Program-made: the position numbers and the translations under genes
Shown: positions 1,312-51,449 of the stretch, piece after piece
Position numbering within the stretch: the first letter of the stretch is position 1
Layout: every line of letters starts with the position of its first letter
Assembly (NCBI GenBank): GCA_963819845.1
Contig: CAWFXQ010000007.1
Coordinates: 55,560 to 119,559 of the forward strand
DNA from: Miltoncostaeaceae bacterium
Lineage (GTDB): Bacteria > Actinomycetota > Thermoleophilia > Miltoncostaeales > Miltoncostaeaceae
DNA: 64,000 bases
Reading direction: 5' to 3'
Notes under the pieces: model-generated
Told to the model about the DNA's origin: nothing
Seen by the model: only the letters and a program-made list of their open reading frames with translations
Databases searched by the model: none

Positions 1312-2439
1312 GGGGTCGGCGTGGGCCACGGCTCCGCCGACCAGCGTCAGCCGCGGCGTCAGCCCCGGGTCGAGCACGACCACGTCGGCGGGGTCGCCCG
1401 GAGCCATCCCCGGAAGGCCGAGCAGCGCCCGCGGCGCCCAGGCCGCGGCGGCGAGGGCGGCCGCGGTCCCGACGCCCGCCCCGGCCAGGGTCCGGGGGCC
1501 CGCGTCGAGGGCCATGGCGCTGCCGGCGAGGCGACCCCGCCGGGTCACGCGCCGCCCGTCCGACATCACGGCCCGCCCGGCCAGCAGGTGGCGGCCCGGC
1601 GGCGCGCCGGCGGCCGCGACCGCGTCGCTCACCAGAACCAGCCGCGGGCCCGCGGCCCGGGCGACGACCGCCGCCACCTCCGGCGCCACGTGCACGCCGT
1701 CGCCGATCAGCGAGACCGACGGGCGCGGGTCGGCGAGGGCCGCGGCGAGCGCCGAGGGCCGGCGGCTCTCGATGCCCCGCATGGCGTTGAGCGCGTGGGT
1801 CACCAGCCGGGCCCCGGCGTCGATCGCGGCCCGCCCCGTCCGCGCGTCGGCCTCCGTGTGGCCGATCGCCGCGACGGCCCCCGCCCGCGCGATCCGGCGC
1901 ACCGCCGCCAGCCCGCCGGGCCGCTCGGGCGCCAGCGTCACGATGGCCGGCGCGAAGGCGGCCAGCAGCCGGTCGACCTCGGCCGGGACGGGGTCGCGCA
2001 GCGCCCCGGCCGGGTGGGCGCCCGCCCGGCCGGGCGAGAGGAAGGGACCCTCCAGGTGGACGCCGAGCGCCCGCGCGCCGGGAGGTGTGCCAATTGGCCG
2101 CGCGCGCCTCGGCCAATTGGCCAAGGGCGCCAGCGCGGCCGCCGCCCTGCCGTAGGCCGCCGCGGAGCGGCTCACGAGGGTGGGGCAGAAGGCCGTGACG
2201 CCCGCCGCCGGGAGGGCCGCGGCGACGGCCGCCAGGGCCTCGGCGCCGCCGTCAACCTCGGCCCCGGCGTAGCCGTTCACCTGGAGGTCGACGAAGCCGG
2301 GGGCGACGATCCAACCCTCGGGGAGCTCCCGCACGGCGCGCCGCGGCCCGCCGGCGGCGATGCGGCCGCGGGCGACCGCGACCTCGCCGCGGATCAGGCG
2401 CCGGCCGGCGAGGACCCGGCCGCGCAGGACGAGCGTCAC
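1273..2439 (-). CDS. nagA: N-acetylglucosamine-6-phosphate deacetylase
   Basis: ORF 1273..2547. Motifs: APGFVDLQVNGYAG, HLEGPFLSP, IGHTEA, THALNAM. GTG start at 2439 overlaps the upstream stop by 4 nt (GTGA). Confidence 0.85.
   Translation of the reverse strand: MTLVLRGRVLAGRRLIRGEVAVARGRIAAGGPRRAVRELPEGWIVAPGFVDLQVNGYAGAEVDGGAEALAAVAAALPAAGVTAFCPTLVSRSAAAYGRAAAALAPLANWPRRARPIGTPPGARALGVHLEGPFLSPGRAGAHPAGALRDPVPAEVDRLLAAFAPAIVTLAPERPGGLAAVRRIARAGAVAAIGHTEADARTGRAAIDAGARLVTHALNAMRGIESRRPSALAAALADPRPSVSLIGDGVHVAPEVAAVVARAAGPRLVLVSDAVAAAGAPPGRHLLAGRAVMSDGRRVTRRGRLAGSAMALDAGPRTLAGAGVGTAAALAAAAWAPRALLGLPGMAPGDPADVVVLDPGLTPRLTLVGGAVAHADPSLPFDVPGAGEV
2088..2122. repeat. Paired palindrome module, copy A: TGCCAATTGGCC-N11-GGCCAATTGGCC, inside the nagA CDS
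   Basis: Read directly from the sequence. The two 12-mers start 23 bp apart. On the nagA strand the module is translated in frame as LANWPRRARPIGT. Confidence 0.85.
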
Positions 2440-3758
2440 GGCCCCGCCGACGCGGAGAGCTCGGCGGCGAGGAGCCCGGGGTCCAGGCCCGGCGCGCCGA
2501 GGTCCCGGGCCAGCCCCTCCGGGTCGAGGGCGCCGCCCTCGAGCCACAGCTCCCGCAGCAGGCGGCCGGCGCGGGGGTCGGCGAACCAGCGCGCGCCGTG
2601 CTCCTCGCGCAGGTGGGTGCGGAGGGCGGCCGCCAGCATCCCGGCGCGCAGCTCATCGGCCGCGCCGAGGCCCGCCAGCCCGTCGGCCAGGCTCAGGGCC
2701 GCCGGCCAGTCGAGCCCGAGGGCCCGCGAGAGCGAGCTGTCCCCGCCCGCGCCGGCGAGGCCGGCCGCGCGGGCGGAGGCGGCGCGGGCCGCCAGCAGGC
2801 GGGCGGTGCCGGCCGCGCCCGCGGCCGCGTCGGCGTCAGCGTCGCGCACCCCGGCCGCCCGCGCCAGCCAGCCCGGGTCGGCCGCCAGGCCCTCGAACAG
2901 CAGCCCCGACGCGCGGGCCAGGGCCGGGTCCGCCAGGCGCGCGCGCTCGAGCGGCAGCCGCGGCGACGCACCGGCGGCGGCCAGCGCCGAGCCCAGGGCC
3001 CCGAGCGTCTCGAGCCACAGCGCCAGGCCCTCGCGCCCGCCCGCCGGCGCCGACGGGCCGCCGGGCGGGCCCAGCTCGAGCAGCTCCCGCGCCCGCGCCG
3101 CCGCATCGCCGGCCGCCGCGGAGCCCAGCTCGGCCTCGAGCTGGGGCGCGCGCACGATCCGCGGCAGGTCGGCGGCGCCCGGCTCCCCGGGGTCGCCGAG
3201 GGCGGCGGCGGCCGCGACGGCGAGCGCGGGGCCGAGGGCGGCGTCGGTGGCGTCGAGCAGGGCCTCGCCCGCCGCGGCGACGCCCGCGAGGTCGAGTCCG
3301 GCGGCGTCGGCGAGCAGCGACTCGGGCGAGTCGGCGCCCGCCCCCCGGGCCGCGTCCTCGCGGCGCCGCCGGGCGTCGGACAGGAGCGGGCCGAGGCGGT
3401 TCTCGAGCGCCCGCAGGCGGGCGGCCTGCAGGGCGCCGCGCCGCCCGCGGTCGGGCTCGGCCGCCAGCGCCGCGTCAACCTCGGGCGGCGCCAGGAGCCC
3501 GCCCGGCCCCTCGACGACGGGCTCCGAGAGCCGGGCCCGCACCTCGGCCAGCTCGTCGGCGCTGGCCAGCCGCAGGAGGCCCTCGGCGGCGAAGCGCGCC
3601 AGCTCGGGCGCGCCCTGGGCCCGCAGGCCCGCGACCGCCTCGGCCGTGAAGAGGTGGGCGAGACGCCGGTCGGCGGCCGGGCCGGGCGCGTCGAGGAGCT
3701 CGCCCGCCCCCCGGCGGTACTCCTCCAGGTCGCGGGGCGGCGGCGGCCACGGCGCAAT
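2436..3758 (-). CDS. Alanine-rich hypothetical protein (about 440 aa, start unresolved)
   Basis: This is the C-terminal part of ORF 2436..5027. It is coding-like, ends ...RTHLREEHGARWFADPRAGRLLRELWLEGG..., and is coupled to nagA. I found no canonical start codon near the 5' end, and I recognise no family. Confidence 0.45.
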   Translation of the reverse strand: MAPWPPPPRDLEEYRRGAGELLDAPGPAADRRLAHLFTAEAVAGLRAQGAPELARFAAEGLLRLASADELAEVRARLSEPVVEGPGGLLAPPEVDAALAAEPDRGRRGALQAARLRALENRLGPLLSDARRRREDAARGAGADSPESLLADAAGLDLAGVAAAGEALLDATDAALGPALAVAAAAALGDPGEPGAADLPRIVRAPQLEAELGSAAAGDAAARARELLELGPPGGPSAPAGGREGLALWLETLGALGSALAAAGASPRLPLERARLADPALARASGLLFEGLAADPGWLARAAGVRDADADAAAGAAGTARLLAARAASARAAGLAGAGGDSSLSRALGLDWPAALSLADGLAGLGAADELRAGMLAAALRTHLREEHGARWFADPRAGRLLRELWLEGGALDPEGLARDLGAPGLDPGLLAAELSASAGP

Positions 3759-3767
3759 ACTAGGAGC

Positions 3768-5133
3768 GTGGAGCGCCCGCGCCGCGACGACGTCCTCGAG
3801 CTCGAGGCCGGCGACCTCGCCTTCGGCGGGGCGGCGGTCGCCCGCCAGGACGGGTTCGTCGTCTTCTGCCGCGACGCCGCCCCCGGCGACCGGGTGCGGG
3901 CCCGGGTGGCGAAGGCGCGGCGGCGGTTCGCCGAGGCCGACCTGGTGGAGGTGCTGCGCCCGGGGCCCGACCGGGTGACGCCGCCCTGCCCGTACGTGCC
4001 GCGCTGCGGCGGCTGCCGGCTGCAGCACGTGGCCTACGGGGCCCAGCTGGCGGCCAAGCGCGACCAGGTGGCCGAGCACCTGGCGCGGATCGGCCACCTC
4101 CCCGACGTGGAGGTGCTCCCGCCCGACCCGGCGGCCGAGCCCTTCGGCTACCGCAACCGGATGGAGTACTCCGCCGCCCCGGGGCCCGCCGGGGAGCTCA
4201 CCCTCGGCTTCCACGCGCGCGGGCGCTGGGACGAGATCGTCGATGTCGCCGCCTGCCTGCTGGCCACGCCGCTGGGCAACGCCGTTCGCGAGACCGCCCG
4301 CGCCGCGGCCGCCGGCGCCGGCCTGGCCCCCTACGACCAGCGCTCCCAGACGGGGACCCTGCGCCACGTCGTGGTGCGCGAGGGCATCGCGACCGGGCAG
4401 GTGCTGGTGACCCTCGTCACCGTCCCGGGCGCCGAGGCGGGCGCCGACGCGGTCGCGGCCCGCCTGGCCGACGCCCATCCCGAGGTCGTGGGGGTGCTGC
4501 ACGCGGTCAACTCGGGGGTCGCCGAGACCACCGCCGGCCACCCCACCCGCGTGGCGCTCGGCCGGGACTGGCTCGAGGAGCGCGTCCGCGGTGCCGCCCT
4601 GCGCATCTCGGCGGGGTCGTTCTTCCAGACGAACACGCGCATGGCCGAGCGGCTCTACGAGCGGGTCGCCGAGGCGGCCGGGCTGGACGGCGCGCAGGTG
4701 CTCTACGACCTCTTCTGCGGCGCCGGGAGCATCGGGGTCGCCCTGGCCGCGGGAGCGCGGGAGGTGGTGGCCATCGACGTCGTGCCCGAGGCGGTCGCCG
4801 ACGCCGAGCGCAATGCCGCGGCCAACGGGCTGGCCAACCACACGGCGCTCTGCGGGGACGTCGGGGTCGTCCTCCGCGAGCGCCGCGGCGAGCTGCCGCC
4901 GCCCGACGTCGCGGTGGTCGAACCCGCCGCGGGCGGGGCTCTCCGGCCGGGCCGTGCGGCGGGTGCTGGAGCTGGCGCCGCCCACGCTGGTGTACGTCTC
5001 CTGCCAGCCCGCGACCTTCGCCGACAACGCCGCCCGCTTCGTGGCCGGCGGCTACCGCCTGGAGTGGGTGCGCCCGGTCAACATGTTCCCCCAGACGCCC
5101 CACATCGAGGCGGTCGCGCGCTTCACCCGCTAG
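3768..5133 (+). pseudogene. 23S rRNA (uracil-5-)-methyltransferase RumA/RlmD family, one frameshift near 4921
   Basis: N-terminal TRAM-like region, Cys cluster CPYVPRCGGCRLQH, and SAM motif DLFCGAGSIG lie in the ORF 2598 frame. The C-terminus NPPRAGLS...LVYVSCQPATFADN...MFPQTPHIEAVARF continues in the ORF 4591..5133 frame. An extra A in gtcgAAccc accounts for the shift. Confidence 0.8.
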
Positions 5134-6806
5134 CGCTGGCGCTGGACGTCCCGCCCCGGGCCACCGATGAGGCGGTCGATGCCCGCGCCGCCGAGGAGCG
5201 TGTCGCGCCCGGCGCCGCCGAGCAGCCGGTCGCGCCCGCGCCCGCCGATCAGCGTGTCGCGGCCTGCACCTCCGCAGATGACGTCGGCGCCCCCCAGGCC
5301 GCGGATCACGTCGTTGCCGCCCAGCCCGGCGATGACGTCGCGGCGCGGCGTGCCGCGCAGCCGGTTCGCCCGCGCGGTGCCGGTCCTCGTCGCCGGGAGG
5401 CCCCCGCAGTGGATCCGTCGCGAGGCGCCGGCGGGGGCCACGGTGGGCGACCCGGTCGTGAAGGTGCGGTCGGCCCCGAGCGTCGTGTCGGAGTCGTTGG
5501 TGGCGACCAGGCGGTAGTGGTGCTCGGTCCCGGGCGCGAGCCCGCCAACCGGGGCGGACGCGGCCTGGAAGGCGAGCGAGGCCCCGACGCCGGCCTCGGG
5601 GGTGCGGGAGCCGTATGCGGGCGTCGTCCCGTAGTCGAAGTGGTAGGTCGTCGTCTGGCCGTTGGGCCGAACCGCGCCGGCGAGCGCGGCCGAGGTCGCC
5701 GCCACCGCGCCGGCCGGCCCCGTCACCGCCGCCGGCCCGACCGAGATGCGGAACACCCGTCCCGGGTCTTGGCTTCCGACCACCCACATCGCGCCGTCCG
5801 GACCCGCCGTGATGCCGTTGGGGAGGGCGTTGGCGGCGAGTCCCGGCGTCATGCCGCCGGCCAGCTCGGTCACCCGGCCGTCCGGGGTGATGCGGGCGAT
5901 CCGCCCCGGGTTCGCCCCCTGGGTGAACCACAGGTTGCCGTCGGGTCCGGCCGCGATGTTGCCGGGGCTGCCGTTGGCCGTGAAGCCGGGCGTCACGCCG
6001 CCCGTGAACTCGGTCACCCGACCGCCGGGCGTGATCCGCGCGACCCGGCCGGGGGCGAGCGACTGGGTGAACCACAGGTTCCCGTCGGCCCCCGCCGCGA
6101 TGTCGATGGGGATGCCGCCGGCGCTGAAGCCGGGGGTCACGCCTCCCGTGAACTCCGTCACCTGACCCCCCGGGGTGACCCGCGCCACCCGGCCGGGCCC
6201 CGCGCTCATCGCAACCCATAGGTTGCCGTCGGGGCCGCTCGTGATCCTGTTGGGCCGGGCGTTGGCGGTGAAGCCCGGCGTCGCGCCCCCGGTGAGCTGC
6301 GTCACCGCGAACGACGGCGTGATCCTCACGATGCCGCCGGGATCCGCGAAGAGGGTGAACCAGACGTTGCCGTCGGGCCCGGCCGTGATGCCCGCGGGCG
6401 TGCCGTTGGCGCTGAACGAGAACGGCCCTCCGCCGGCCAGCTCGCCGACGCCGACGGTGATCCGGGCCACTGCGCCCGGGTTCGCCTCCCCGAGGAACCA
6501 CATCGGGCCATCGGGGCCGGCGGCGAGCCGCGTGGGCCTACGGTCGGCGGTGAACCCGGAGGTGACTCCCCCCGTGAACTCGGTGGCCTGCCCGGCCGGC
6601 GTCATGCGCACGATGTGACCCGGGTCGTTGAGCAGACTGAACCACAGGTTGCCGTCGTTGCCCGCCGCGATGCCCACCGGAAAGGCGTTCGCCGAGTAGC
6701 CGGCCGGGCCCGGCAGGAACTCGGTCACGGTCGGAGCGCTCGCGGCGGCGGACGGACCGAGGGCCGCGAGCAGGAGCGCGGCCAGCGTCGGGAGAAGGCG
6801 CCGCAC
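5130..6806 (-). CDS. Secreted beta-propeller protein: Vgb (streptogramin lyase)-like repeats plus C-terminal RTX-type GGxGxD repeats
   Basis: Signal peptide [24 protein letters not shown]. About 8 repeats of GPDGNLWFT...RITP.G.VTEF. The C-terminus is [42 protein letters not shown]. Confidence 0.8.
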
Positions 6807-14672: not shown

Positions 14673-15350
14673 ATGCCGTCGCCCCGCCCCGGGACCCGGG
14701 CCCACGCCGGCGAGATCGCCCGGCGGCTCGAGGACGCACAGGGGCACATCGCCTGGCGGCGCCACCGCGACCCGGTCAGCGAGCTGGTCACGACGCTCCT
14801 GAGCCACAGCACGACCGACGCCAACCAGATCCGGGCCTTCCAGGCGCTGCGCGCCCGTTACCCCACCTGGGACGAGGTGCGCCGGGCGCCGACGGCCGAG
14901 GTGGAGGATGTGGTGCGCGTGGCGGGACTGGCCGGCCAGAAGGCCCCCCGGATCCAGCACGTCCTGGACGTCATCGCCGAGGACCCCCGCGGATCCGACC
15001 TCGAGTGGCTCGGCGACGTCCCGCTCGACGAGGCCATGGCCTTCCTCACCTCACTCCCGGGCGTGGGGCCGAAGACCGCCGGCTGCGTCATGTGCTTCTG
15101 CTTCGACGCCCCGATCGTGCCCGCCGACACCCACGTCCACCGCATCGCCCTGCGCACCAGGATCGTCCCCCCGAAGGCGAGCGCCCCCGCGGCCCAGGAG
15201 CGCCTCAGCCGGTGGATCCCCCCCGAGCTCACCTACGCCACCCACATGCACCTGATCGCCCACGGCCGGACGGTCTGCACCGCCCGCTCGCCCCGCTGCG
15301 CCGACTGCCTCCTCCTCGACCTCTGCCCGGAGGGCCGCCGGCGGGTCTGA
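14673..15350 (+). CDS. Endonuclease III-like HhH-GPD base-excision DNA glycosylase
   Basis: HhH region LPGVGPKTAGCV, catalytic-region DTHVHR, and a C-terminal 4Fe-4S cluster loop CTARSPRCADCLLLDLC. Confidence 0.85.
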   Translation: MPSPRPGTRAHAGEIARRLEDAQGHIAWRRHRDPVSELVTTLLSHSTTDANQIRAFQALRARYPTWDEVRRAPTAEVEDVVRVAGLAGQKAPRIQHVLDVIAEDPRGSDLEWLGDVPLDEAMAFLTSLPGVGPKTAGCVMCFCFDAPIVPADTHVHRIALRTRIVPPKASAPAAQERLSRWIPPELTYATHMHLIAHGRTVCTARSPRCADCLLLDLCPEGRRRV

Positions 15351-15363
15351 GCTGCCGCTGCGC

Positions 15364-15503
15364 GGCCACGGCGGAGACGGCCAAGTGGCCACGGCGGAGA
15401 CGGCAAGTGGCCACGCGGGACGGCAAGTGGCCACGGCGGAGACGGCCAAGTGGCCACGGCGGAGACGGCCAAGTGGCCACGGCGGAGACGGCCAAGTGGC
15501 CAC
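15364..15503. repeat. Tandem array: six cores of GGCCAAGTGGCC (two lack one C), each followed by the constant spacer ACGGCGGAGAC
   Basis: Cores start at 15379, 15402, 15422, 15444, 15467 and 15490, giving periods of 23/20/22/23/23. A leading partial unit GGCC-ACGGCGGAGAC is at 15364. The array begins 14 nt after the nth-like stop. Confidence 0.9.
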
Positions 15504-15574
15504 TCCTGGCGTCGCGGTCAGGCCGCCGCTTCGCCCGGCGGGTGGGCGTCTCGGGCGGCGAGCAGAGGCGCAAT

Positions 15575-15597
15575 ATCTCAGTCGGACCGACTAAGAT
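15575..15597. promoter_or_regulatory. HAIR-like inverted repeat (candidate HspR operator) upstream of dnaK
   Basis: ATCTCAGTCGG-A-CCGACTAAGAT has 11-bp arms with 1 mismatch. The core TCTCAGT-N7-ACTAAGA shares the 7-N7-7 geometry of HAIR, CTTGAGT-N7-ACTCAAG. The right arm GACTAAGATC is repeated as GACTTAGATC at 15614-15623. Confidence 0.4.
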
Positions 15598-15601
15598 CGC
15601 C

Positions 15602-15629
15602 TTGACATGGCCTGACTTAGATCTACCAT
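15602..15629 (+). promoter_or_regulatory. Sigma-70-like promoter of the dnaK operon (TTGACA-N16-TACCAT)
   Basis: Perfect -35 at 15602-15607 and a TAnnnT -10 at 15624-15629. It lies about 60 nt upstream of ATG 15690, which is preceded by the ribosome-binding site GAGGAGGA. Confidence 0.5.
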
Positions 15630-15689
15630 CGGGGCAGACAATTCGACCCCGCGGGCCGGGCACGCTCGGCCGAGGAGGACAACGGACGC

Positions 15690-17582
<1,893 letters not shown>

Positions 17583-19764: not shown

Positions 19765-20198
19765 GCACCGGGTCGCGCGGGGGCGTGTTCCTGATCGGCA
19801 TCGCGGCGGAGCTGGCCGGGATGCACCCCCAGACCCTGCGCGTCTACGAGCGCCGCGGGCTCATCACCCCGGCCCGCAGCCCTCGCAACACGCGCCTCTA
19901 CTCCGAGCGGGACGTGGCCCTGCTGCGGCGCATCCAGGAGCTGTCGGAGGAGGGCCTCAACCTCGCCGGGATCGAGCGCGTCCTGCGGCTCGAGAAGGAG
20001 CTCGAGCGCGCCGAGCGGCGCATCCGGGACCTGGCCCTGGAGCTCGGGGAGGCCACGGAGCGCCACCGCGACGAGCTGGCCGCCGCGCGCGCCGCGCGCG
20101 GCCAGATGGTCGTGGCGGCGCGCGACGGGATGGCGCTGGTGCCGCGCTATGCGCCGGCCGTGCCGCGCCGGCGGACGACGATGGAGGGACGCGCCTGA
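19761..20198 (+). CDS. hspR: MerR-family heat-shock repressor HspR
   Basis: MerR HTH: [46 protein letters not shown] overlaps the dnaJ stop (ATGA). The position after dnaJ matches actinobacterial dnaK operons. Confidence 0.85.
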
Positions 20199-22795
20199 TG
20201 GCGGTGGACACGCCGACCGAGAGGGCCCAGGAGGCGATCGCCGAGTCGGCGCGCCTGGCGGGCGACCGCGGCAACCAGGTGGTGGAGCCGGAGCACCTGC
20301 TGCTCGCGCTGCTCGACGCCCCGGAGGGCGTCGTGGAGCCCGTGCTCCAGAACGCCGGCGCCGACCTGCCGGCCCTGCGCGCCGCGGCCGTCGCGGCCAT
20401 CGAGCGCCGCGCCCAGGTGAGCGGCGCGGCGGCCGGGGCGCAGCTCTCGAACGCCTACCGGCAGGTCCTGCGCCGGGCCGGCCAGGAGGCGGAGAAGCTC
20501 TCGGACGAGTACATCTCGACGGAGCACCTGCTGCTGTCGCTGCTCGAGGAGCCGTCCCCGGCGCGCGAGGCGCTGCGCGGGGCCGGAGTCACCCGCGACG
20601 CCCTGCTCGCGGCCCTGAAGTCCGTTCGCGGCTCGGCGCGCGTCACCGACCCCAACCCGGAGGGCAAGTACCAGGCGCTCGAGCAGTACGGCCGCGACCT
20701 CACCGAGGCCGCCGAGGCCGGGAAGCTCGACCCGGTGATCGGCAGGGACGAGGAGATCCGGCGCGTCATCCAGGTGCTGTCGCGCCGCACCAAGAACAAC
20801 CCGGTGCTGATCGGCGAGCCCGGCACGGGCAAGACCGCGATCGTCGAGGGCCTGGCACAGCGCATCGTGGCCGGGGACATCCCCGAGGGGCTGGCCGGCA
20901 AGCGCGTGGTGGCCCTCGACGTCGGCGGGCTGCTGGCGGGCGCCAAGTACCGCGGCGAGTTCGAGGACCGGCTCAAGGCCGTGCTGCGCGAGATCCAGGA
21001 CGCCGCCGGGCAGGTGATCCTGTTCATCGACGAGCTCCACACCATCGTCGGCGCCGGCGCCGCCGAGGGCGCGGTGGACGCCGCCAACCTGCTCAAGCCG
21101 ATGCTGGCGCGCGGCGAGCTGCGCGCGGTGGGCGCCACGACCCTCGACGAGTACCGCAGGCACGTCGAGAAGGACGCGGCCCTGGAGCGCCGCTTCCAGC
21201 CCGTCATGGTGGGGGAGCCGTCGGTCGAGGCCACCGTCGCGATCCTGCGCGGCCTGAAGGAGCGCTACGAGGTGCACCACGGGGTGCGCATCCAGGACGG
21301 GGCCCTGGTGGCCGCCGCCCGCCTGTCGGACCGCTACATCACGGCCCGCTTCTTGCCCGACAAGGCCATCGACCTCATCGACGAGGCCGCCAGCCGCCTG
21401 CGCATCGAGATCGACTCGGTGCCGGCCGAGCTCGACGCGGTGCAGCGGCGCATCATGCAGCTCGAGATCGAGCAGCAGGCCCTGGAGGCGGAGACCGACG
21501 CCGGCTCGGCGGCCCGCCGCACGGCGATCGCGCAGGAGCTGGCCTCCCTGCGCGAGGAGGCCGACGGCATGCGCGCCCACTGGGAGCTCGAGAAGTCGAT
21601 GATCACGCGCATACGCGAGATCAAGGAGCAGATCGAGGCCGCCCGCCAGGAGCTGGAGCGCGCCCAGCGCGACAGCGACCTCGAGGGGGCGGCGCGGCTG
21701 CAGTACGGCACCCTGCCCGAGCTGGAGGGGGCCCTGGAGACCGCCAACGACGAGCTCGAGCGCCTGCAGGCGGACCGCCGGATGCTCAAGGAGGAGGTCG
21801 ACGAGGAGGACGTCGCCGAGGTCGTGGCGAGCTGGACCGGCGTGCCGGTGAGCCGCCTGATGGAGGGCGAGGTCGAGAAGCTCCTGCACATGGAGGAGCG
21901 CCTGCACGAGCGGGTCGTGGGCCAGGATGACGCGGTGAGCGCCGTGGCCAACGCCCTGCGCCGCGCGCGCGCCGGCCTCTCCGACCCCGACCGGCCGATC
22001 GGCTCGTTCCTCTTCCTCGGCCCCACCGGGGTGGGGAAGACCGAGCTCGCCCGGGCGCTGGCCGGGTTCATGTTCGACGACGAGCGCGCCATGGTCCGGA
22101 TCGACATGAGCGAGTACATGGAGCGCCACGCGGTGGCCCGCCTGATCGGCGCCCCGCCGGGCTACGTGGGGTTCGAGGAGGGCGGGCAGCTCACCGAGGC
22201 CGTCCGGCGCCGCCCCTACTCGGTGCTCCTGCTGGACGAGATCGAGAAGGCCCACCCCGACGTCTTCAACGTGCTGCTGCAGCTGCTCGACGACGGGCGC
22301 CTGACCGACGGCCAGGGCCGCATCGTGGACTTCACCAACACCGTCGTGATCATGACCAGCAACATCGGCAGCCAATTCCTGGCCGACGGGATCGACGAGG
22401 AGATCGCGGAGGAGCGCGTGCTCGGCGCCCTGCGCGACCACTTCCGCCCCGAGTTCCTCAACCGGGTCGACGAGATCGTGGTCTTCGGCCGCCTCGGCCG
22501 CGAGCAGCTCGCGGAGATCGTCGACCTCCAGGTGGCGCGGCTGCGCGACCGCCTCGCCGATCGCGGCGTCGCGCTGGAGCTGGCCCCGGCCGCGACCGAG
22601 CTCCTCGCGCGCGAGGGCTACGACCCGGCCTACGGCGCCCGGCCCCTCAAGCGGCTGGTGCAGCGGCGCATCGAGAACCCACTCGCACAGCAGATGCTGA
22701 GCGGCGCTGTGGGGCAGGGCGACCGGGTGGTGGTGGGCGCCGACGGCGACGAGCTCACGTTCGCGGTGGCCGAGCCGGCGGTGACAACCTCCTAA
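20198..22795 (+). CDS. clpB: ATP-dependent disaggregase ClpB
   Basis: 865 aa. Clp N-domain, two AAA modules (GEPGTGKT and GPTGVGKTE) and the middle coiled-coil. ATG overlaps the hspR stop (TGATG). Confidence 0.97.
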
Positions 22796-34046: not shown

Positions 34047-34081
34047 GGCCAATTGGCCAAAGGCGCCACGGCCAATTGGCC
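34047..34081. repeat. Paired palindrome module, copy B: GGCCAATTGGCC-N11-GGCCAATTGGCC
   Basis: Two perfect 12-mers at 34047 and 34070, in the divergent intergenic region between the NAGPA-like gene (start 33986) and the histidine kinase. Confidence 0.9.
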
Positions 34082-36374: not shown

Positions 36375-37388
36375 CCGAGGGCGCCCGCGCGGCGCGCGCT
36401 GAGGTGCCCCGCCTCGTACAGCCAGCGGACCGTGTCGCGGACCGACTCCTCCGCGGGCCGGAACGGGACGTCGAGCTCGCGGGCCGTCGCCGAGCCGTCG
36501 GCCGAGCCGTCCTGGCTCGCGGCCCAGGAGGCCTCGCGGGAGGGCAGGAGGTCGACGCCCAGCCGGCCGAGCGCCTGGCCCAGCGCCCCGCTGGCCGCGG
36601 CCACCGGGGCGGGGACGGTCGCGATCGGCAGGTGCCGTCCGGTGACCCGCACGACGGTGCGCATGACCTCGGCGACGGGCACGCTCTCGCCGGCGGCGAC
36701 GTGGCGCCGGGGCCCGCCCCCCGGCGAGGCGAGGGCCGCGTGGACGGCGGCCACGTCGCGCACGTCGCTCATCGGCACGATCCCGGGCGGCAGGGCCGGC
36801 AGCCGCCCCGCCAGCGCGGCGAGGGCGACCTGGGAGCTCTCGCCGAGATGCGGGTCGTGCGGCCCCCATACCATGCCCGGATAGGTGATCGCGACCGGGG
36901 CGCCCTCGTCCTGCAGGGCGCGGGCGACGGCCTCGGAGGCCGCCTTCGAGCCGGTGTAGGGGTGGGGCGAGGTCCCGACGGGCGACGTCTCGTCGAGCGG
37001 CCGGCCGGTGAGGTTGGGGATGAGGGCGCCGTAGCTCGACACGTGGACGATCGGGTCGAGGCCGGCCTCGGCGGCCGCCCGCAGCACGCCCTCCGTCCCC
37101 GGGACGTTGACGCGGCGGATCTCGTCCGCGCGCCGGGGAGAGCGAGTAGACGCTCGCGGCGTGGACCACGGCGTCGCAGCCGGCGACCGCGGCGCGCACC
37201 GCCCCCGGATCGGTGACGTCGCCGGGCACGACCTCGACCTCGCCGGGATCGATCCCCACCGGGAGCAGGGCCGGGGCGACGCGGCCGGGCGACCTCACGA
37301 GCAGGCGCAGCTCGTGCCCGGCCTCCCGCAGGGCCGCGACGGTGTGGCAGCCGACGAACCCGGTGCCCCCGGTCACGAGGATCCTCAC
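36362..37388 (-). pseudogene. NAD-dependent epimerase/dehydratase, 1 frameshift (~37134)
   Basis: The N-terminus VRILVTGGTGFVGCH...VVHAASVYSLSP is in the ORF 35220 frame. The rest, RADEIRRVNVPGTEGVLRAAAEAGLDPIVHVSS...YTGSK..., is in the ORF 36362..37087 frame. GTG 37388 overlaps the upstream stop (GTGA). Confidence 0.8.
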
Positions 37389-38797
37389 GGGAGCGCCTCG
37401 GGCGCCCCCCGGTGCGCTGTGAGGAGCGCCGCGACCGTGCGGTCGATGTCCGCCTCGCCCGTGCGCCAGCTCGTCACCGACAGCCGGGCGGCGGCCACGC
37501 CACGCCACGTCGTCCCGCTGGGGTAGCAGGTGCCCTCGGCCTGGGCCGCCGCGACGACGGCCCGGGTGTGGGCGTCGTCGTCGCGCCCGGCCGGGTCGGC
37601 GAACCGCACCACGACCTGGTTCAGGTCCTGGTGCAGCACCTCGGCGCCGTCGGCCGCGGCGAGGCGGGCGGCCGCGCGCTCGGCCATCCGGCAGCAGCGC
37701 TCCACCAGCTCCGCGACCCCGCGCCGGCCGAGGTGGCGGAGCGCGGCCCAGACGGGCACCGACCGGGCCCGCCGCGACAGCTCGGGGTTGTAGTCGATCG
37801 GATCGCGCAGGCCGGCGTCGTCGCCGTCGGGCAGGTAGGCGGCCCGCACCCCCATGGCCCGGCGGTGCGCGTCCGGGTGGGCGCAGACGGCGATGCCGCA
37901 GTCGTAGGGCGTGTTCAGCCACTTGTGCGCGTCGGTCGCCCACGAGTCGGCCCGCTCGGCCCCCTCCACGAGGTGCCGGTAGGCCGGGGCGGCTCGTGCC
38001 CAGAGGCCGAAGGCGCCGTTGACGTGCACCCAGAGGTCGTCGCGGGCGACGCGGTCGACGACCTCGGCCACGGCGTCGACCGCTCCGCCGTTCACGTTCC
38101 CGGCCTGGAGGCAGACGATCGTCGGGCCGCGCCGGCCGGCCGCCGCCGCGGCGAGGGCGTCCGGCCGCACCCGCCCGGCGTCGTCGCACGCCACGGCGTG
38201 CGCCGTGCCGGTGCCGAGGCCCAGCGCGCGCAGGGCGGCGTCGATCGAGTCGTGGCGCTGCTCCCCCACCAGCACGCCCACCCGCGGCGCGCCCTGGAGG
38301 CCCGCCTCCTCGACGTCCCAGCCGTGGGCGGCGAGCACGTGGTTGCGCGCCGCGGCGAGGCACGACGTGTTGGCCATCTGCCCGCCGGTCACGAAGCCGA
38401 CGGACGCCCCCCGGGGCAGGTCGAGAAGGTCGAGCACCCAGCCCGCCGCGACCTGCTCGATCATGGTGGTCGCGGGGAAGGGCTCGGACATCGCCGAGTT
38501 CTGGTCCCAGGCGCTCACCAGCCAGTCGGCCGCGATCGCGACCGGCAGGGTCCCGCCGATCACCCAGCCGTGGAAGCGCCCCGACCCGGACGCCATGAGC
38601 CCGGGCTCGGCGCGCCGGGCGAGGTCGCGCACGACCTCGGCGGCGGGCGCGCCCTCCTCGGGCAGGGGCTCGTCGAAGGCGGCGAGCATGGCGCGGGCTC
38701 CGGCCGCCGGGCGCACCGGGCGCCCGGGCAGGCTCTCCAGCCAGTCGCGGGCCGCGCCTGCGGCGACGGCCAGGACCGATTCGTCTGCGGCGCTCAT
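37385..38797 (-). CDS. PLP-dependent group II decarboxylase-like protein
   Basis: GGQMANTSCL, ...HVNGAFG..., SWATDAHKWLNTPYDCG (PLP lysine). Start taken as MSAADES. Confidence 0.85.
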   Translation of the reverse strand: MSAADESVLAVAAGAARDWLESLPGRPVRPAAGARAMLAAFDEPLPEEGAPAAEVVRDLARRAEPGLMASGSGRFHGWVIGGTLPVAIAADWLVSAWDQNSAMSEPFPATTMIEQVAAGWVLDLLDLPRGASVGFVTGGQMANTSCLAAARNHVLAAHGWDVEEAGLQGAPRVGVLVGEQRHDSIDAALRALGLGTGTAHAVACDDAGRVRPDALAAAAAGRRGPTIVCLQAGNVNGGAVDAVAEVVDRVARDDLWVHVNGAFGLWARAAPAYRHLVEGAERADSWATDAHKWLNTPYDCGIAVCAHPDAHRRAMGVRAAYLPDGDDAGLRDPIDYNPELSRRARSVPVWAALRHLGRRGVAELVERCCRMAERAAARLAAADGAEVLHQDLNQVVVRFADPAGRDDDAHTRAVVAAAQAEGTCYPSGTTWRGVAAARLSVTSWRTGEADIDRTVAALLTAHRGAPEALP

Positions 38798-39066
38798 CCG
38801 TCCACTTCTACACCCCCGGGGGGCCTCTCGGGCGGGCATCTCGGAGGGCGAATCGGCGGTTGACCGCCGCGGCCCGTCCGTCGCTCAATGCTCCGCAACC
38901 GGATCCCGGGGGTGGATCGCGAGCCGGCGGCCGGCGGCCGGCTGACCTGCCGGTTCGCGTTCGGCGGCGACAAGTGACCGCCGCGCGCTCGCTCACCAAG
39001 GCACCGAGGGGCGAGGGGCTGACGGGCCCGGCGGCCCGAGGCGCCGCCCTTCTAAACTCGGCGCCG

Positions 39067-50699: not shown

Positions 50700-50734
50700 G
50701 GCCAATTGGCCATCGCGCGCTCGGCCAATCGGCC
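50700..50734. repeat. Paired palindrome module, copy C1: GGCCAATTGGCC-N11-GGCCAATCGGCC
   Basis: Read directly. The 12-mers are at 50700 and 50723. Confidence 0.9.
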
Positions 50735-50807: not shown

Positions 50808-50842
50808 GGCCATTTGGCCGTCGGGTGGGCGGCCAATCGGTT
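50808..50842. repeat. Paired palindrome module, copy C2 (degenerate): GGCCATTTGGCC-N11-GGCCAATCGGTT
   Basis: Read directly. The 12-mers are at 50808 and 50831, and the second runs into a TTGACA hexamer. Confidence 0.8.
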
Positions 50843-50921: not shown

Positions 50922-51449
50922 ATGGCGCGGAGCCTGTACAAGGGGCAGGGACTGGGGAACCGGCCACCGTGTCTGCTCTGCATGGGACCGGGGGAGGGGG
51001 ACCGGGCCGAGCTGCGCCTGCCGTACGGCGTGTCGGTGTGGCTCTGCGCGGCGCACCGGAGCCTCGAGTTCGGGGTCCTGAGGTCGCTTCGGGAGGGAGC
51101 CCCCACCGCCCGGGGTCGACCCCCAGCCACCGCCGGGCGGGTGGCCGGGGCAGGGTCGTGTGGAGGCCCAGGACGACCCTGCCCCGACCTTCGCCGCCCC
51201 CGGACCCTGCACGACCTCGCGTGCCCGACGACTGGGCGGAGGGGTTCCCCGACGACCGCGCCGGACCATCACGTCGGCCCGGACCGGGGGGCGGGGCGGG
51301 TCGTGCAGCGTGCACGTGCAGGGCAGGCACGGCGCGGACCCGGGGTCGCGTGGCGGACGACCTCATGCGCTCTTGGACCCGGCCGGGTCAAGAGGCCGCA
51401 GGTCACCGGAGTGCCGGCCGGCAGCCGGTTGCGAGCAGCCGGTGGCTAG
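50922..51449 (+). CDS. Hypothetical protein with an N-terminal CxxC...CxxH zinc-ribbon-like segment and an R/G/P-rich tail
   Basis: Internal ATG of ORF 50706..51449, with high GC3 throughout. Sequence MARSLYKGQGLGNRPPCLLCMGPGEGDRAELRLPYGVSVWLCAAHRSLEF. No family recognised, and all three frames are open here. Confidence 0.3.
   Translation: MARSLYKGQGLGNRPPCLLCMGPGEGDRAELRLPYGVSVWLCAAHRSLEFGVLRSLREGAPTARGRPPATAGRVAGAGSCGGPGRPCPDLRRPRTLHDLACPTTGRRGSPTTAPDHHVGPDRGAGRVVQRARAGQARRGPGVAWRTTSCALGPGRVKRPQVTGVPAGSRLRAAGG

What the first reader, a model, noticed from the sequence alone, without database searches (positions are those of the whole stretch)
15364..15503. Six-copy tandem array of an imperfect palindrome plus a constant spacer, between the nth-like gene and the dnaK promoter
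Six cores of GGCCAAGTGGCC (two have lost one C) are each followed by the same 11-nt spacer, ACGGCGGAGAC. The periods are 23, 20, 22, 23 and 23 bp. The array starts 14 nt after the nth-like stop codon and ends about 100 bp before the TTGACA -35 of the heat-shock operon. No ORF or known RNA explains it.

The 12+11 geometry is identical to the dispersed GGCCAATTGGCC-N11-GGCCAATTGGCC pairs elsewhere in the window, so the array looks like an amplified member of that family. Possible roles are an iteron- or centromere-like protein-loading array, a REP/BIME-like hairpin cluster, or a multi-hairpin terminator/insulator shielding dnaK from read-through.
Basis: seen in the sequence. Interest (0 to 1): 0.75.

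Follow-up and report, generated by a model that had tools for sequence, protein, structure and literature searches.

The report
Expanded dispersed palindromic repeat near dnaK
The 140-bp run of six 23-bp units between a DNA-repair gene and the dnaK heat-shock operon is real, but it is a locally expanded, copy-number-variable member of an apparently undescribed short palindromic repeat family scattered through Miltoncostaeaceae (Thermoleophilia) genomes, not a dedicated dnaK control element.

Summary
The array is real: TRF finds period 23, 6.3 copies, 95% match. The dispersed GGCCAATTGGCC-N11-GGCCAATTGGCC pairs are real too.

The window comes from a Miltoncostaeaceae (Thermoleophilia) genome. 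Public genomes and metagenomes of that class hold many copies of the same design: a core Y-GGCCAA(T/G)TGGCC-R plus a free spacer, usually 11 nt. AATT cores occur mostly as pairs. AAGT cores, as here, sit head-to-tail and account for every array of five or more (up to 11).

The position after nth holds 0, 2.5, 5, 6 or 7 cores in close relatives. Spacers are uniform within an array and differ between genomes. Two close relatives and both cultured Miltoncostaea species have no array, yet keep the same HAIR-like/TTGACA dnaK promoter. In two relatives a gene separates the array from dnaK. So this is a slippage-type VNTR of a REP/BIME-like family, not a dnaK operator, iteron or insulator.

The cores are under DNA-level constraint. 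A pair inside nagA keeps GCCAATTGGC twice in three species, using near-forbidden AAT and ATT codons. I infer an unidentified sequence-specific protein.

Inter-core hairpins are disfavoured for the AAGT type (30 head-to-tail loci against 5 inverted).

Moderate interest.

The parts
15364..15503 (+). Whole tandem array: truncated core GGCC, then six [11-nt spacer + core] units; AAGT-type cores all in the same orientation
   Evidence: period 23, 6.3 copies, 95% match, score 252
15379..15390 (+). core 1, GGCCAAGTGGCC
15402..15412 (+). core 2, GGCAAGTGGCC (one C missing)
15413..15421 (+). degenerate 9-nt spacer ACGCGGGAC (the others are ACGGCGGAGAC at 15368-78, 15391-401, 15433-43, 15456-66, 15479-89)
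15422..15432 (+). core 3, GGCAAGTGGCC (one C missing)
15444..15455 (+). core 4, GGCCAAGTGGCC
15467..15478 (+). core 5, GGCCAAGTGGCC
15490..15501 (+). core 6, GGCCAAGTGGCC
14673..15350 (+). nth-like gene (HhH-GPD, endonuclease III FeS domain); the array is anchored to its 3' end in the window, L121 and L124
15504..15576 (.). Right flank of the array. It shows weak similarity, at the same offset, to the 3' end of a minus-strand membrane-protein gene that follows the orthologous array in L121 and L098. It is probably a remnant left when that gene was deleted (inference).
   Evidence: 24/30 identity at offset 25-54 in the window against 27-54 in L121
15577..15629 (+). Context, not part of the repeat: HAIR-like inverted repeat TCTCAGT-N7-ACTAAGA and the dnaK promoter TTGACA-16-TACCAT, conserved in all relatives with or without the array
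15690..17582 (+). Context: dnaK, first gene of the dnaK-hsp20-grpE-dnaJ-hspR-clpB operon
2088..2122 (.). Family member inside the nagA coding sequence (minus-strand gene 1273-2439): TGCCAATTGGCC-N11-GGCCAATTGGCC, encoding ANW-x5-PIG in a loop insertion
34047..34081 (.). Family member: AATT pair in a divergent intergenic region (NAGPA-domain gene to the left, histidine kinase to the right). The orthologous site in L024 has 4 cores.
50700..50734 (.). Family member: pair GGCCAATTGGCC-N11-GGCCAATCGGCC, downstream of the ATP-sulfurylase gene
50808..50842 (.). Family member: degenerate pair GGCCATTTGGCC-N11-GGCCAATCGGTT abutting a TTGACA. Conserved in L099 and L064, upstream of a conserved 175-aa ORF with no Pfam domain.

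Best explanation
SHOWN. The array is a locally expanded cluster of a 23-bp unit. The unit belongs to a lineage-specific interspersed repeat family of Miltoncostaeaceae and other Thermoleophilia.
- The unit is a 12-14-bp palindromic core, Y-GGCCAA(T/G)TGGCC-R, plus a spacer of fixed length (usually 11 nt) and essentially free sequence.
- The basic form is two cores 23 bp apart.
- Because the cores are direct repeats 23 bp apart, replication slippage or unequal exchange adds and removes whole units. This makes the spacer uniform within an array and lets copy number drift between genomes.
- The AAGT subtype seen here is the array-forming subtype.
- At this locus the element is tied to the 3' end of nth.

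INFERRED.
- The ancestral position was probably between nth and a convergent membrane-protein gene. Loss of that gene in this genome brought the array next to the dnaK promoter.
- The array is not part of dnaK control. That is provided by the conserved HAIR-like operator, the TTGACA promoter and the operon-encoded HspR.
- The cores are kept unchanged because a sequence-specific protein recognises each palindrome, probably as a dimer. The array would then simply offer up to six phased sites. Whether that protein is a host architectural or regulatory protein, or the enzyme that spreads the repeat, cannot be told from sequence.
For: Family and phasing
- The commonest start-to-start distance between cores is 23 bp (114 cases), then 24 (19), 20 (14) and 22 (13).
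- Lineages differ in centre and spacing: nearly all AATT in MFD09368, mostly AAGT in three Miltoncostaeaceae MAGs, and a 20-bp period in two others.

Expansion
- AATT clusters: 86 pairs, 6 triples, 5 quadruples.
- AAGT clusters: 39 pairs, 19 triples, 13 quadruples and all 16 arrays of 5-11 cores.

Copy number at the orthologous site after nth
- Window: 6 cores, spacer ACGGCGGAGAC.
- L121: 7 cores, spacer AAGCGCAAGGC.
- L098: 2.5 cores.
- L124: 2+3 AATT/AAAT cores.
- L122, L123, M. marina and M. oceani: none.
- The dnaK promoter is conserved in all of these.
- The site orthologous to 34047 has 4 cores in L024 against 2 in the window, with near-identical flanks.

Dispersal as a unit
- The same 35-mer, spacer included (ACGCGGCGTCT, with one mismatch in the third copy), sits at three loci of one genome with unrelated flanks. 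That genome also shows a spacer consensus.
- A loop insertion of about 9-10 aa, carrying a pair, is present in nagA of a subclade only.

Constraint on the cores
- In nagA of three species GCCAATTGGC is invariant twice, while the spacer keeps only 4 of 12 columns.
- This uses AAT (1 of 191 Asn codons in window genes) and ATT (5 of 526 Ile codons).
- One orthologue has AKW, which is the AAGT variant.

Context
- Members lie in all intergenic types: 33 between co-directional genes, 17 convergent, 11 divergent, 12 called inside genes. This does not fit a promoter-specific operator.
Against: - No partner protein was identified, so nothing here shows binding.
- Identical 35-mers at unrelated loci fit a selfish mobile element. 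Such an element would not by itself explain why an old copy inside nagA stays intact.
- Gene context rests on crude GC3-based gene calls.
Only the metagenome scan was unbiased for orientation.
- A more distant genome (L101) also has a 5-core AAGT array about 70 bp upstream of the dnaK promoter, which keeps a dnaK link faintly alive.
- A 23-bp period is 2.2 helical turns, so successive sites are not on one face of the helix. Lineages also differ in period (20, 23, 24 bp), which is awkward for a fixed cooperative geometry.
Confidence: 0.62

Rival explanations
1. RNA- or DNA-hairpin element. Neighbouring cores pair to give stem-loops. These would act as (bidirectional) terminators or as 3'-end mRNA stabilisers, as described for REP elements. 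On this reading the array is a multi-hairpin terminator for nth.
For: - AATT pairs fold as a 13-bp stem with an 11-nt loop, -25.1 kcal/mol, z = -4.4.
- The whole array folds at -98.9 kcal/mol against -84.3 for shuffles, z = -3.7.
- The array starts 13 nt after the nth stop. In L121 and L124 it starts about 25 and 7 nt after it.
- Among members between co-directional genes, 8 of 33 lie within 20 nt of the upstream stop and none within 20 nt of a start. Seventeen lie between convergent genes.
Against: - AAGT cores are head-to-tail in 30 loci and inverted in only 5 (p = 2e-5). The arrangement that would give a perfect stem is therefore the rare one.
- The two-core AAGT unit folds only at z = -2.6, and in a shifted register.
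- No U-tract; the terminator scan finds nothing.
- From established knowledge: mycobacterial RNA polymerase needs a U-tract at intrinsic terminators.
- Spacers show no self-complementarity beyond chance: 2.0 of 5 positions against 2.03 in the control.
- Members also lie in divergent promoter regions and in a coding sequence.
- By my own tally's context list, AAGT orientation relative to flanking co-directional genes is about even (5 sense, 6 antisense; crude count).
- Loop length is held at 11 nt, which a hairpin does not require.
Confidence: 0.13
2. Sequence drive without a binding function. The cores are kept and multiplied by a biased repair or uptake process, as proposed for HIP1 in cyanobacteria or for DNA uptake sequences. 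An example would be very-short-patch-type repair coupled to a YGGCCR, GGCC or TGGCCA methyltransferase.
For: - Cores are conserved inside a coding region against codon bias.
- Lineages have their own 'dialects'.
- Each core consists of two YGGCCR hexamers 8 bp apart. The flanks are Y at -1 and R at +1.
Against: - CCAATTGG never occurs singly in the window; all 5 copies lie in pairs.
- The 23-bp phasing, and whole 35-mers shared between loci, are not what a short-motif drive predicts.
- Roughly 84% of clusters are intergenic, although coding DNA is the bulk of the genome.
- TGGCCA outside the elements is about as frequent as my rough composition-based estimate (about 19 expected; 30 observed, roughly half of them inside the elements).
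Confidence: 0.08
3. Dedicated cis-regulatory array of the dnaK operon: an upstream operator, activator or architectural site, or an insulator against read-through from nth.
For: - It lies about 100 bp upstream of the -35 in the window.
- L124 has a 2+3-core cluster in the same place.
- The distant L101 has a 5-core AAGT array in the same orientation, about 70 bp upstream of the dnaK -35.
Against: - The array is absent from L122, L123, M. marina and M. oceani, which all keep the promoter and the HAIR-like repeat.
- In L098 and L121 a minus-strand gene separates it from dnaK.
- The same repeat occurs next to unrelated genes and inside nagA.
- Copy number and spacer sequence are free to vary.
Confidence: 0.05
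4. Plasmid-type iteron or centromere-like array that loads a Rep or ParR/ParB-like protein for replication or partition.
For: Five to seven direct repeats at a 22-23-bp period is the classical iteron or parC geometry (established knowledge). Cores are head-to-tail.
Against: - The setting is chromosomal housekeeping genes, with no rep or par gene nearby.
- The family is dispersed at about one cluster per 13 kb in the window, and more densely in MFD09368.
- No match in 72,556 plasmids beyond two chance-level hits, and none in the viral contigs.
- The array is missing in close relatives.
Confidence: 0.02
5. Assembly artefact: the copy number, or the array as a whole, results from collapse or expansion in a metagenome assembly.
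For: - The source is a MAG contig of 191,564 bp.
- Two cores lack a C and one spacer is 2 nt short. These are the sort of indels that long-read assemblies produce.
Against: - Orthologous arrays with other spacers exist in independent assemblies (L121, L098, L124).
- Arrays of the same family occur in dozens of unrelated metagenome contigs.
- At 140 bp the array is shorter than any long read.
Confidence: 0.04

Closest known systems
REP / BIME elements of Enterobacteria and Pseudomonas (RAYT-associated repetitive extragenic palindromes, REPINs)
   Same: - Short palindromic units of about 35 nt per pair.
- Inferred to number in the hundreds per genome.
- Mainly extragenic and lineage-specific.
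- Clustered at fixed spacing.
- Cluster size varies between strains, as in BIME-2 arrays.
- Often just after stop codons.
   Different: - Each arm is itself a perfect 12-14-bp palindrome.
- Asymmetric (AAGT) cores are head-to-tail, not alternating or inverted.
- AATT cores have no GT[AG]G tetranucleotide.
- Members also occur in divergent promoter regions and in-frame in a gene.
- No RAYT gene was seen (not testable without whole genomes).
BOX elements of Streptococcus pneumoniae and MIRU-VNTR loci of mycobacteria
   Same: Interspersed intergenic repeats in which one module is tandemly repeated a variable number of times, differing between loci and between strains. This gives VNTR behaviour through slippage.
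   Different: The unit is far shorter: 23 bp, against 45 bp for boxB and 40-100 bp for MIRU. The core is palindromic and the spacer is free. The clade is different. There is no evidence of translation or of an RNA-level effect.
HIP1 (GCGATCGC) of cyanobacteria and DNA uptake sequences (USS/DUS) of Pasteurellaceae and Neisseriaceae
   Same: A short motif kept intact at orthologous sites, even inside coding regions and against codon preference. There are lineage 'dialects' that differ by one base.
   Different: Those motifs occur mostly singly, at about one per kb, and largely in coding DNA. Here the motif occurs only in phased pairs or arrays, is strongly intergenic, and whole core-spacer-core units are shared between loci.
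Plasmid iterons and ParR/TubR centromeres
   Same: Five to seven head-to-tail repeats at a period of about 22-23 bp. Such arrays load multimers of one DNA-binding protein.
   Different: The element is chromosomal, dispersed and dispensable in sister genomes. No cognate rep or par gene is nearby, and the plasmid collection has no analogue.
HAIR operator of HspR (actinobacterial dnaK operon)
   Same: It lies upstream of the same operon, which encodes an HspR-type MerR regulator.
   Different: The HAIR-like inverted repeat is a separate element at 15577-15599, next to the -35. It is conserved in all relatives. The array shares no sequence with it.

Membership tests
REP/BIME (RAYT-associated) | Imperfect palindrome of 20-40 nt able to form a stem-loop | tested here: inconclusive
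   AATT pairs fold into a 13-bp stem with an 11-nt loop. AAGT cores, the type in this array, are head-to-tail in 30 of 35 loci, so neighbouring cores pair with a central 2x2 mismatch.
REP/BIME (RAYT-associated) | Conserved GT[AG]G tetranucleotide at the 5' end of the palindrome | tested here: not met
   The logos of 244 AATT and 103 AAGT cores show only Y at -1 and R at +1. GTGG occurs only as an internal part of the AAGT core.
REP/BIME (RAYT-associated) | Cognate RAYT (Y1 HUH transposase) gene flanked by the repeats | not testable with these tools
   Whole genomes could not be scanned. The only transposase found next to elements is IS256-like (L141).
REP/BIME (RAYT-associated) | Many extragenic copies, clustered at fixed spacing, with cluster size varying between strains | tested here: met
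Intrinsic (Rho-independent) terminator | GC-rich hairpin followed by a U-tract | tested here: not met
   The terminator scan of 15200-15750 finds nothing. No T run follows any core.
Plasmid iterons / partition centromere | Array adjacent to its rep or par gene on a replicon that depends on it | tested here: not met
   The neighbours are nth and the dnaK operon. The family is dispersed. There is no plasmid or viral analogue.
HspR/HAIR operator | Inverted repeat related to CTTGAGT-N7-ACTCAAG overlapping or next to the heat-shock promoter | tested here: not met
   The array has no such repeat. The HAIR-like element is separate, at 15577-15599. M. oceani carries a near-consensus TTGAGT-N7-ACTCAA there and has no array.
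CRISPR array | Repeats of 23-47 bp, unique spacers of 21-72 bp, cas genes or a leader | tested here: not met
   The repeat is 12 bp, the spacers are 11 nt and identical within the array, and no cas genes are in the neighbourhood.
VNTR / minisatellite (behaviour, not a sequence family) | Copy number differs between close relatives at an orthologous locus, with units made uniform within an array | tested here: met
   0, 2.5, 5, 6 or 7 cores after nth. 2 against 4 cores at the 34047 site.

The most novel reading that the evidence does not exclude
The cores are the genome-wide recognition sites of an uncharacterised sequence-specific DNA-binding protein of Thermoleophilia. It could be an architectural (nucleoid-type) protein or a domesticated or active mobilising enzyme. 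It would bind Y-GGCCAA(T/G)TGGCC-R as a dimer and measure about 23 bp between sites. Selection for binding would keep individual sites intact even inside genes. AAGT arrays such as this one would be high-avidity loading platforms whose copy number tunes local occupancy. That would be a new kind of phased, palindrome-based chromosomal site system.
Probability: 0.3. Interest if true: 0.65.

Novelty: new variant of a known kind. Interest (0 to 1): 0.42.

Why it matters
For the window itself, the result removes a tempting but wrong reading. The array is not part of heat-shock control; dnaK is served by a conserved HspR/HAIR-type promoter.

More generally, the finding exposes an abundant, apparently undescribed interspersed repeat family in a poorly studied actinobacterial class. 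No paper in the searchable library mentions the motif. Its architecture is unusual in four ways:
- The cores are self-palindromic and phased at 23 bp.
- Lineages have their own dialects of centre and spacing.
- One subtype is prone to forming arrays.
- The cores are conserved at DNA level strongly enough to override codon bias inside a gene.

That combination points to an unknown sequence-specific protein partner.

Practical consequences: the arrays are ready-made VNTR markers for strain typing of Miltoncostaeaceae in metagenomes. They are also likely trouble spots for assembly and gene calling.

Tried and rejected
- Exact-protein look-ups of the window's Nth and DnaK, and of P0001 (100% identical to DnaK), found no contig. 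The cluster look-up gave no accession. The source genome therefore could not be named beyond Miltoncostaeaceae.
- Rfam, both locally at E<=1 and over the whole window at gathering threshold, gave nothing but a tRNA-Pro.
- The viral contig scan gave 0 hits. The plasmid BLAST gave two chance-level hits.
- Literature search: no paper treats the 12-mers as a repeat element, and the Miltoncostaea literature has nothing on repeats.
- The N12 hits of the genome scan turned out to be (GGCCAAGT)n or (GGCCAACT)n 8-bp microsatellites in unrelated phyla, and were excluded.
- I tested whether the element is a larger dyad, meaning spacer self-complementarity or outer-flank covariation between cores. There was no signal above control.
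- I looked for a fixed distance to start codons or promoters. There is none.
- I looked for a transposase between closely spaced pairs. The only one found was an IS256-like gene flanked by longer direct repeats in one metagenome contig.
- Pfam on neighbouring ORFs of unknown function gave no DNA-binding candidate.
- Considered and dropped: CRISPR-like mini-array, sigma-70 or sigma-54 promoter element, MetJ/PhoP/GlnR-type direct-repeat operators, BldC-type sites, dif/Xer sites. None fits the sequence or the genome-wide distribution (from knowledge, not tested beyond the sequence itself).

Full report
OBSERVATION

Window 15364-15503 holds a tandem array with period 23, 6.3 copies, 95% matches and TRF score 252. 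It has six cores:
- four exact GGCCAAGTGGCC at 15379, 15444, 15467 and 15490;
- two 11-mers lacking one C at 15402 and 15422.

The cores are joined by ACGGCGGAGAC four times and by a degenerate 9-mer once. One more spacer copy and a truncated core (GGCC) precede the first core. Start-to-start periods are 23, 20, 22, 23, 23, as reported.

GGCCAAKTGGCC with up to one mismatch gives 22 strand-matches against 0.71 expected. The spacer 11-mer is confined to the array. The array begins 13 nt after the stop of an endonuclease-III-like gene (HhH-GPD and FeS domains). It ends about 100 bp before TTGACA-16-TACCAT.

Nothing coding or Rfam-like explains it. The dispersed GGCCAATTGGCC-N11-GGCCAATTGGCC pairs at 2088, 34047 and 50700, and a degenerate pair at 50808, are real. 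Every CCAATTGG octamer in the window lies in one of them.

WHERE THE WINDOW COMES FROM

The DNA is 72-83% G+C. The operon is dnaK-hsp20-grpE-dnaJ-hspR(MerR)-clpB. DnaK is 94-96% identical to proteins of Miltoncostaeaceae MAGs and 90% identical to Miltoncostaea marina and M. oceani.

A FAMILY, NOT A ONE-OFF

The N12 hits were 8-bp microsatellites, (GGCCAAGT)n, in unrelated phyla, and I set them aside. What remains is dominated by Thermoleophilia and Miltoncostaeaceae.
- The commonest core-to-core distance is 23 bp (114 cases), followed by 24 (19), 20 (14) and 22 (13).
- The extended core is Y-GGCCAA(T/G)TGGCC-R. Spacer sequence is only weakly conserved.
- Lineages have dialects: nearly all AATT with 23/24 bp in MAG MFD09368, mostly AAGT with 23 bp in three Miltoncostaeaceae MAGs, and a 20-bp period in two others.

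A metagenome scan unbiased for orientation gave 68 loci.
- AAGT cores are head-to-tail in 30 loci and inverted in 5 (p = 2e-5).
- AATT clusters are nearly always pairs (86 pairs, 6 triples, 5 quadruples).
- AAGT clusters include all 16 arrays of 5-11 cores.

So the window's array is a typical large member of the array-forming AAGT subtype.

THE LOCUS IN RELATIVES

After nth:
- L121 has 7 cores with spacer AAGCGCAAGGC.
- L098 has 2.5 cores, plus a stray unit.
- L124 has 2+3 AATT/AAAT cores.
- L122, L123, M. marina and M. oceani have none.

In L121 and L098 a minus-strand membrane-protein gene lies between the array and dnaK. The window's right flank matches the 3' end of that gene weakly, but at the same offset (24/30). 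I therefore infer that the ancestral position was a convergent spacer, and that loss of the gene brought the array close to dnaK.

All relatives keep the HAIR-like inverted repeat and the TTGACA promoter, whether or not they have the array. The array is therefore dispensable for dnaK.

A more distant genome (L101, dnaK 80% nucleotide identity) has a 5-core AAGT array about 70 bp upstream of its dnaK promoter. This is the only observation that still hints at a dnaK link.

At the orthologue of the 34047 site, L024 has four cores where the window has two, between almost identical flanks. Copy number is thus free to vary, and spacers are uniform within arrays. That is the signature of slippage or unequal exchange between direct repeats 23 bp apart.

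SPREAD AND CONSTRAINT

In MFD09368 the same 35-mer, spacer included, sits at three loci with unrelated flanks. The genome's elements also share a spacer consensus. So units are copied as a whole.

The pair at 2088-2122 lies inside nagA. It encodes ANW-x5-PIG within a loop insertion of about 9-10 residues. Seven close orthologues have the insertion and more distant ones lack it.

In three species the DNA keeps GCCAATTGGC twice, while only 4 of 12 spacer columns are conserved. This uses AAT and ATT, which make up 1 of 191 Asn codons and 5 of 526 Ile codons in window genes. One orthologue reads AKW, which is the AAGT variant.

This is constraint at the DNA level. It is hard to reconcile with a dead selfish insertion.

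CONTEXT

With crude GC3-based gene calls, clusters fall as follows: between co-directional genes 33, convergent 17, divergent 11, inside. They are often within 20 nt of a stop (8 of 33) and never that close to a start. That is not the pattern of a promoter operator.

By my tally's list, AAGT orientation relative to flanking co-directional genes is about even (5 against 6).

HAIRPINS

AATT pairs fold into a 13-bp stem with an 11-nt loop (-25.1 kcal/mol, z = -4.4). The AAGT two-core unit folds less well and in a shifted register (z = -2.6). The whole array has z = -3.7.

Four points argue against an inter-core hairpin as the selected feature of the AAGT type:
- the head-to-tail bias;
- the lack of a U-tract;
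- the fixed loop length;
- the absence of spacer self-complementarity.

VERDICT

Shown:
- The array is real.
- It belongs to a dispersed, phased palindromic repeat family.
- It is a copy-number-variable expansion of the AAGT subtype.
- It is absent from several close relatives.
- dnaK's conserved promoter does not depend on it.

Inferred:
- Expansion is by slippage.
- An adjacent gene was lost, creating the proximity to dnaK.
- An unidentified sequence-specific protein recognises the cores.

The iteron/centromere and insulator readings are not supported. The terminator/stabiliser reading survives only weakly.

The nearest known kinds are REP/BIME clusters and BOX or MIRU-type VNTRs. The family fails the REP tetranucleotide test, and its RAYT association could not be tested. 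I therefore file it as a new variant of that kind, not as a member. No literature on the motif or on repeats in this clade was found.

Noticed in passing
window 15577-15629 (also L098, L118, L119, L121-L124): HAIR-like inverted repeat TCTCAGT-N7-ACTAAGA directly upstream of TTGACA-16-TACCAT, with a further half-site GACTTAGATCT in the promoter spacer. It is conserved in all relatives. M. oceani has a near-consensus HAIR (TTGAGT-N7-ACTCAA). hspR (19785-20198) and clpB (20198-22795) sit in the same operon.
   Followed up: partly
window 2088-2122 (nagA, minus strand 1273-2439): A repeat pair sits in frame inside N-acetylglucosamine-6-phosphate deacetylase, as a loop insertion ANW-x5-PIG just before the HLEGPF motif. 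It is conserved at DNA level in three species with otherwise almost unused AAT and ATT codons.
   Followed up: yes
L002, L006, L009, L011, L013, L017, L031, L077, L088, L102, L110 and others: 8-bp microsatellites (GGCCAAGT)n, (GGCCAACT)n and (GGCCAAAT)n occur in Phycisphaeraceae, Streptomyces, Povalibacter, Reyranella and Micrococcales. They contain the same 12-mer by construction but have no 23-bp phasing. Their nature (coding or not) was not examined.
   Followed up: no
L141 1560-3290 (metagenome contig Ga0299914_10057320): An IS256-like transposase ORF (1829-3163) is flanked by direct repeats of about 80 bp. Each holds one element pair with nearly the same spacer (ACGACGGCGTT and ACGAGGGCGTT). 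This could be an insertion into, or a duplication around, a longer repeat that carries the pair.
   Followed up: partly
L118 1560-2340 (M. marina nth-dnaK spacer): The 950-bp spacer lacks the GGCCAAKTGGCC family. It contains a different repeated segment of about 60 bp (…GGGTCGGCTGGGGCCGATCCTGAGCGCGGGCGGGACCCGGCC…) in at least two copies.
   Followed up: no
window 5784-6416 and 5148-5340: 144-bp tandem repeats (about 3 copies, 71-77% match) and 27/54-bp repeats lie inside a minus-strand ORF (5130-6728). This is probably a protein with repeated domains.
   Followed up: no
window 37387-39052 vs L024 4603-4620: A segment of about 1.66 kb, carrying a 435-aa minus-strand gene (37385-38689), is present in the window and absent from the otherwise syntenic L024.
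   Followed up: no
window 50808-50842 and 50922-51449: The degenerate pair abuts a TTGACA. It lies about 80 bp upstream of a conserved 175-aa ORF (MARSLYKGQGLGN…, Cys-rich, no Pfam hit). Pair and ORF are conserved together in L099 and L064.
   Followed up: partly
L098 834-860 vs L080 63-212 (same MAG contig, about 96 kb apart): A stray unit, GCCAAGTGGCC-AACCGGGCAAC-GGCC, has the spacer of the 7-core L080 array. It sits in a rearranged stretch with pseudogene-like fragments downstream of nth. This hints that single units can move or be copied between loci.
   Followed up: partly
window 15402-15432: Two cores lack one C of GGCC and the spacer between them is 2 nt short. This may be genuine decay of the middle units. 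It may equally be indel errors of a long-read MAG assembly, possibly at a methylated GGCC or YGGCCR motif.
   Followed up: no
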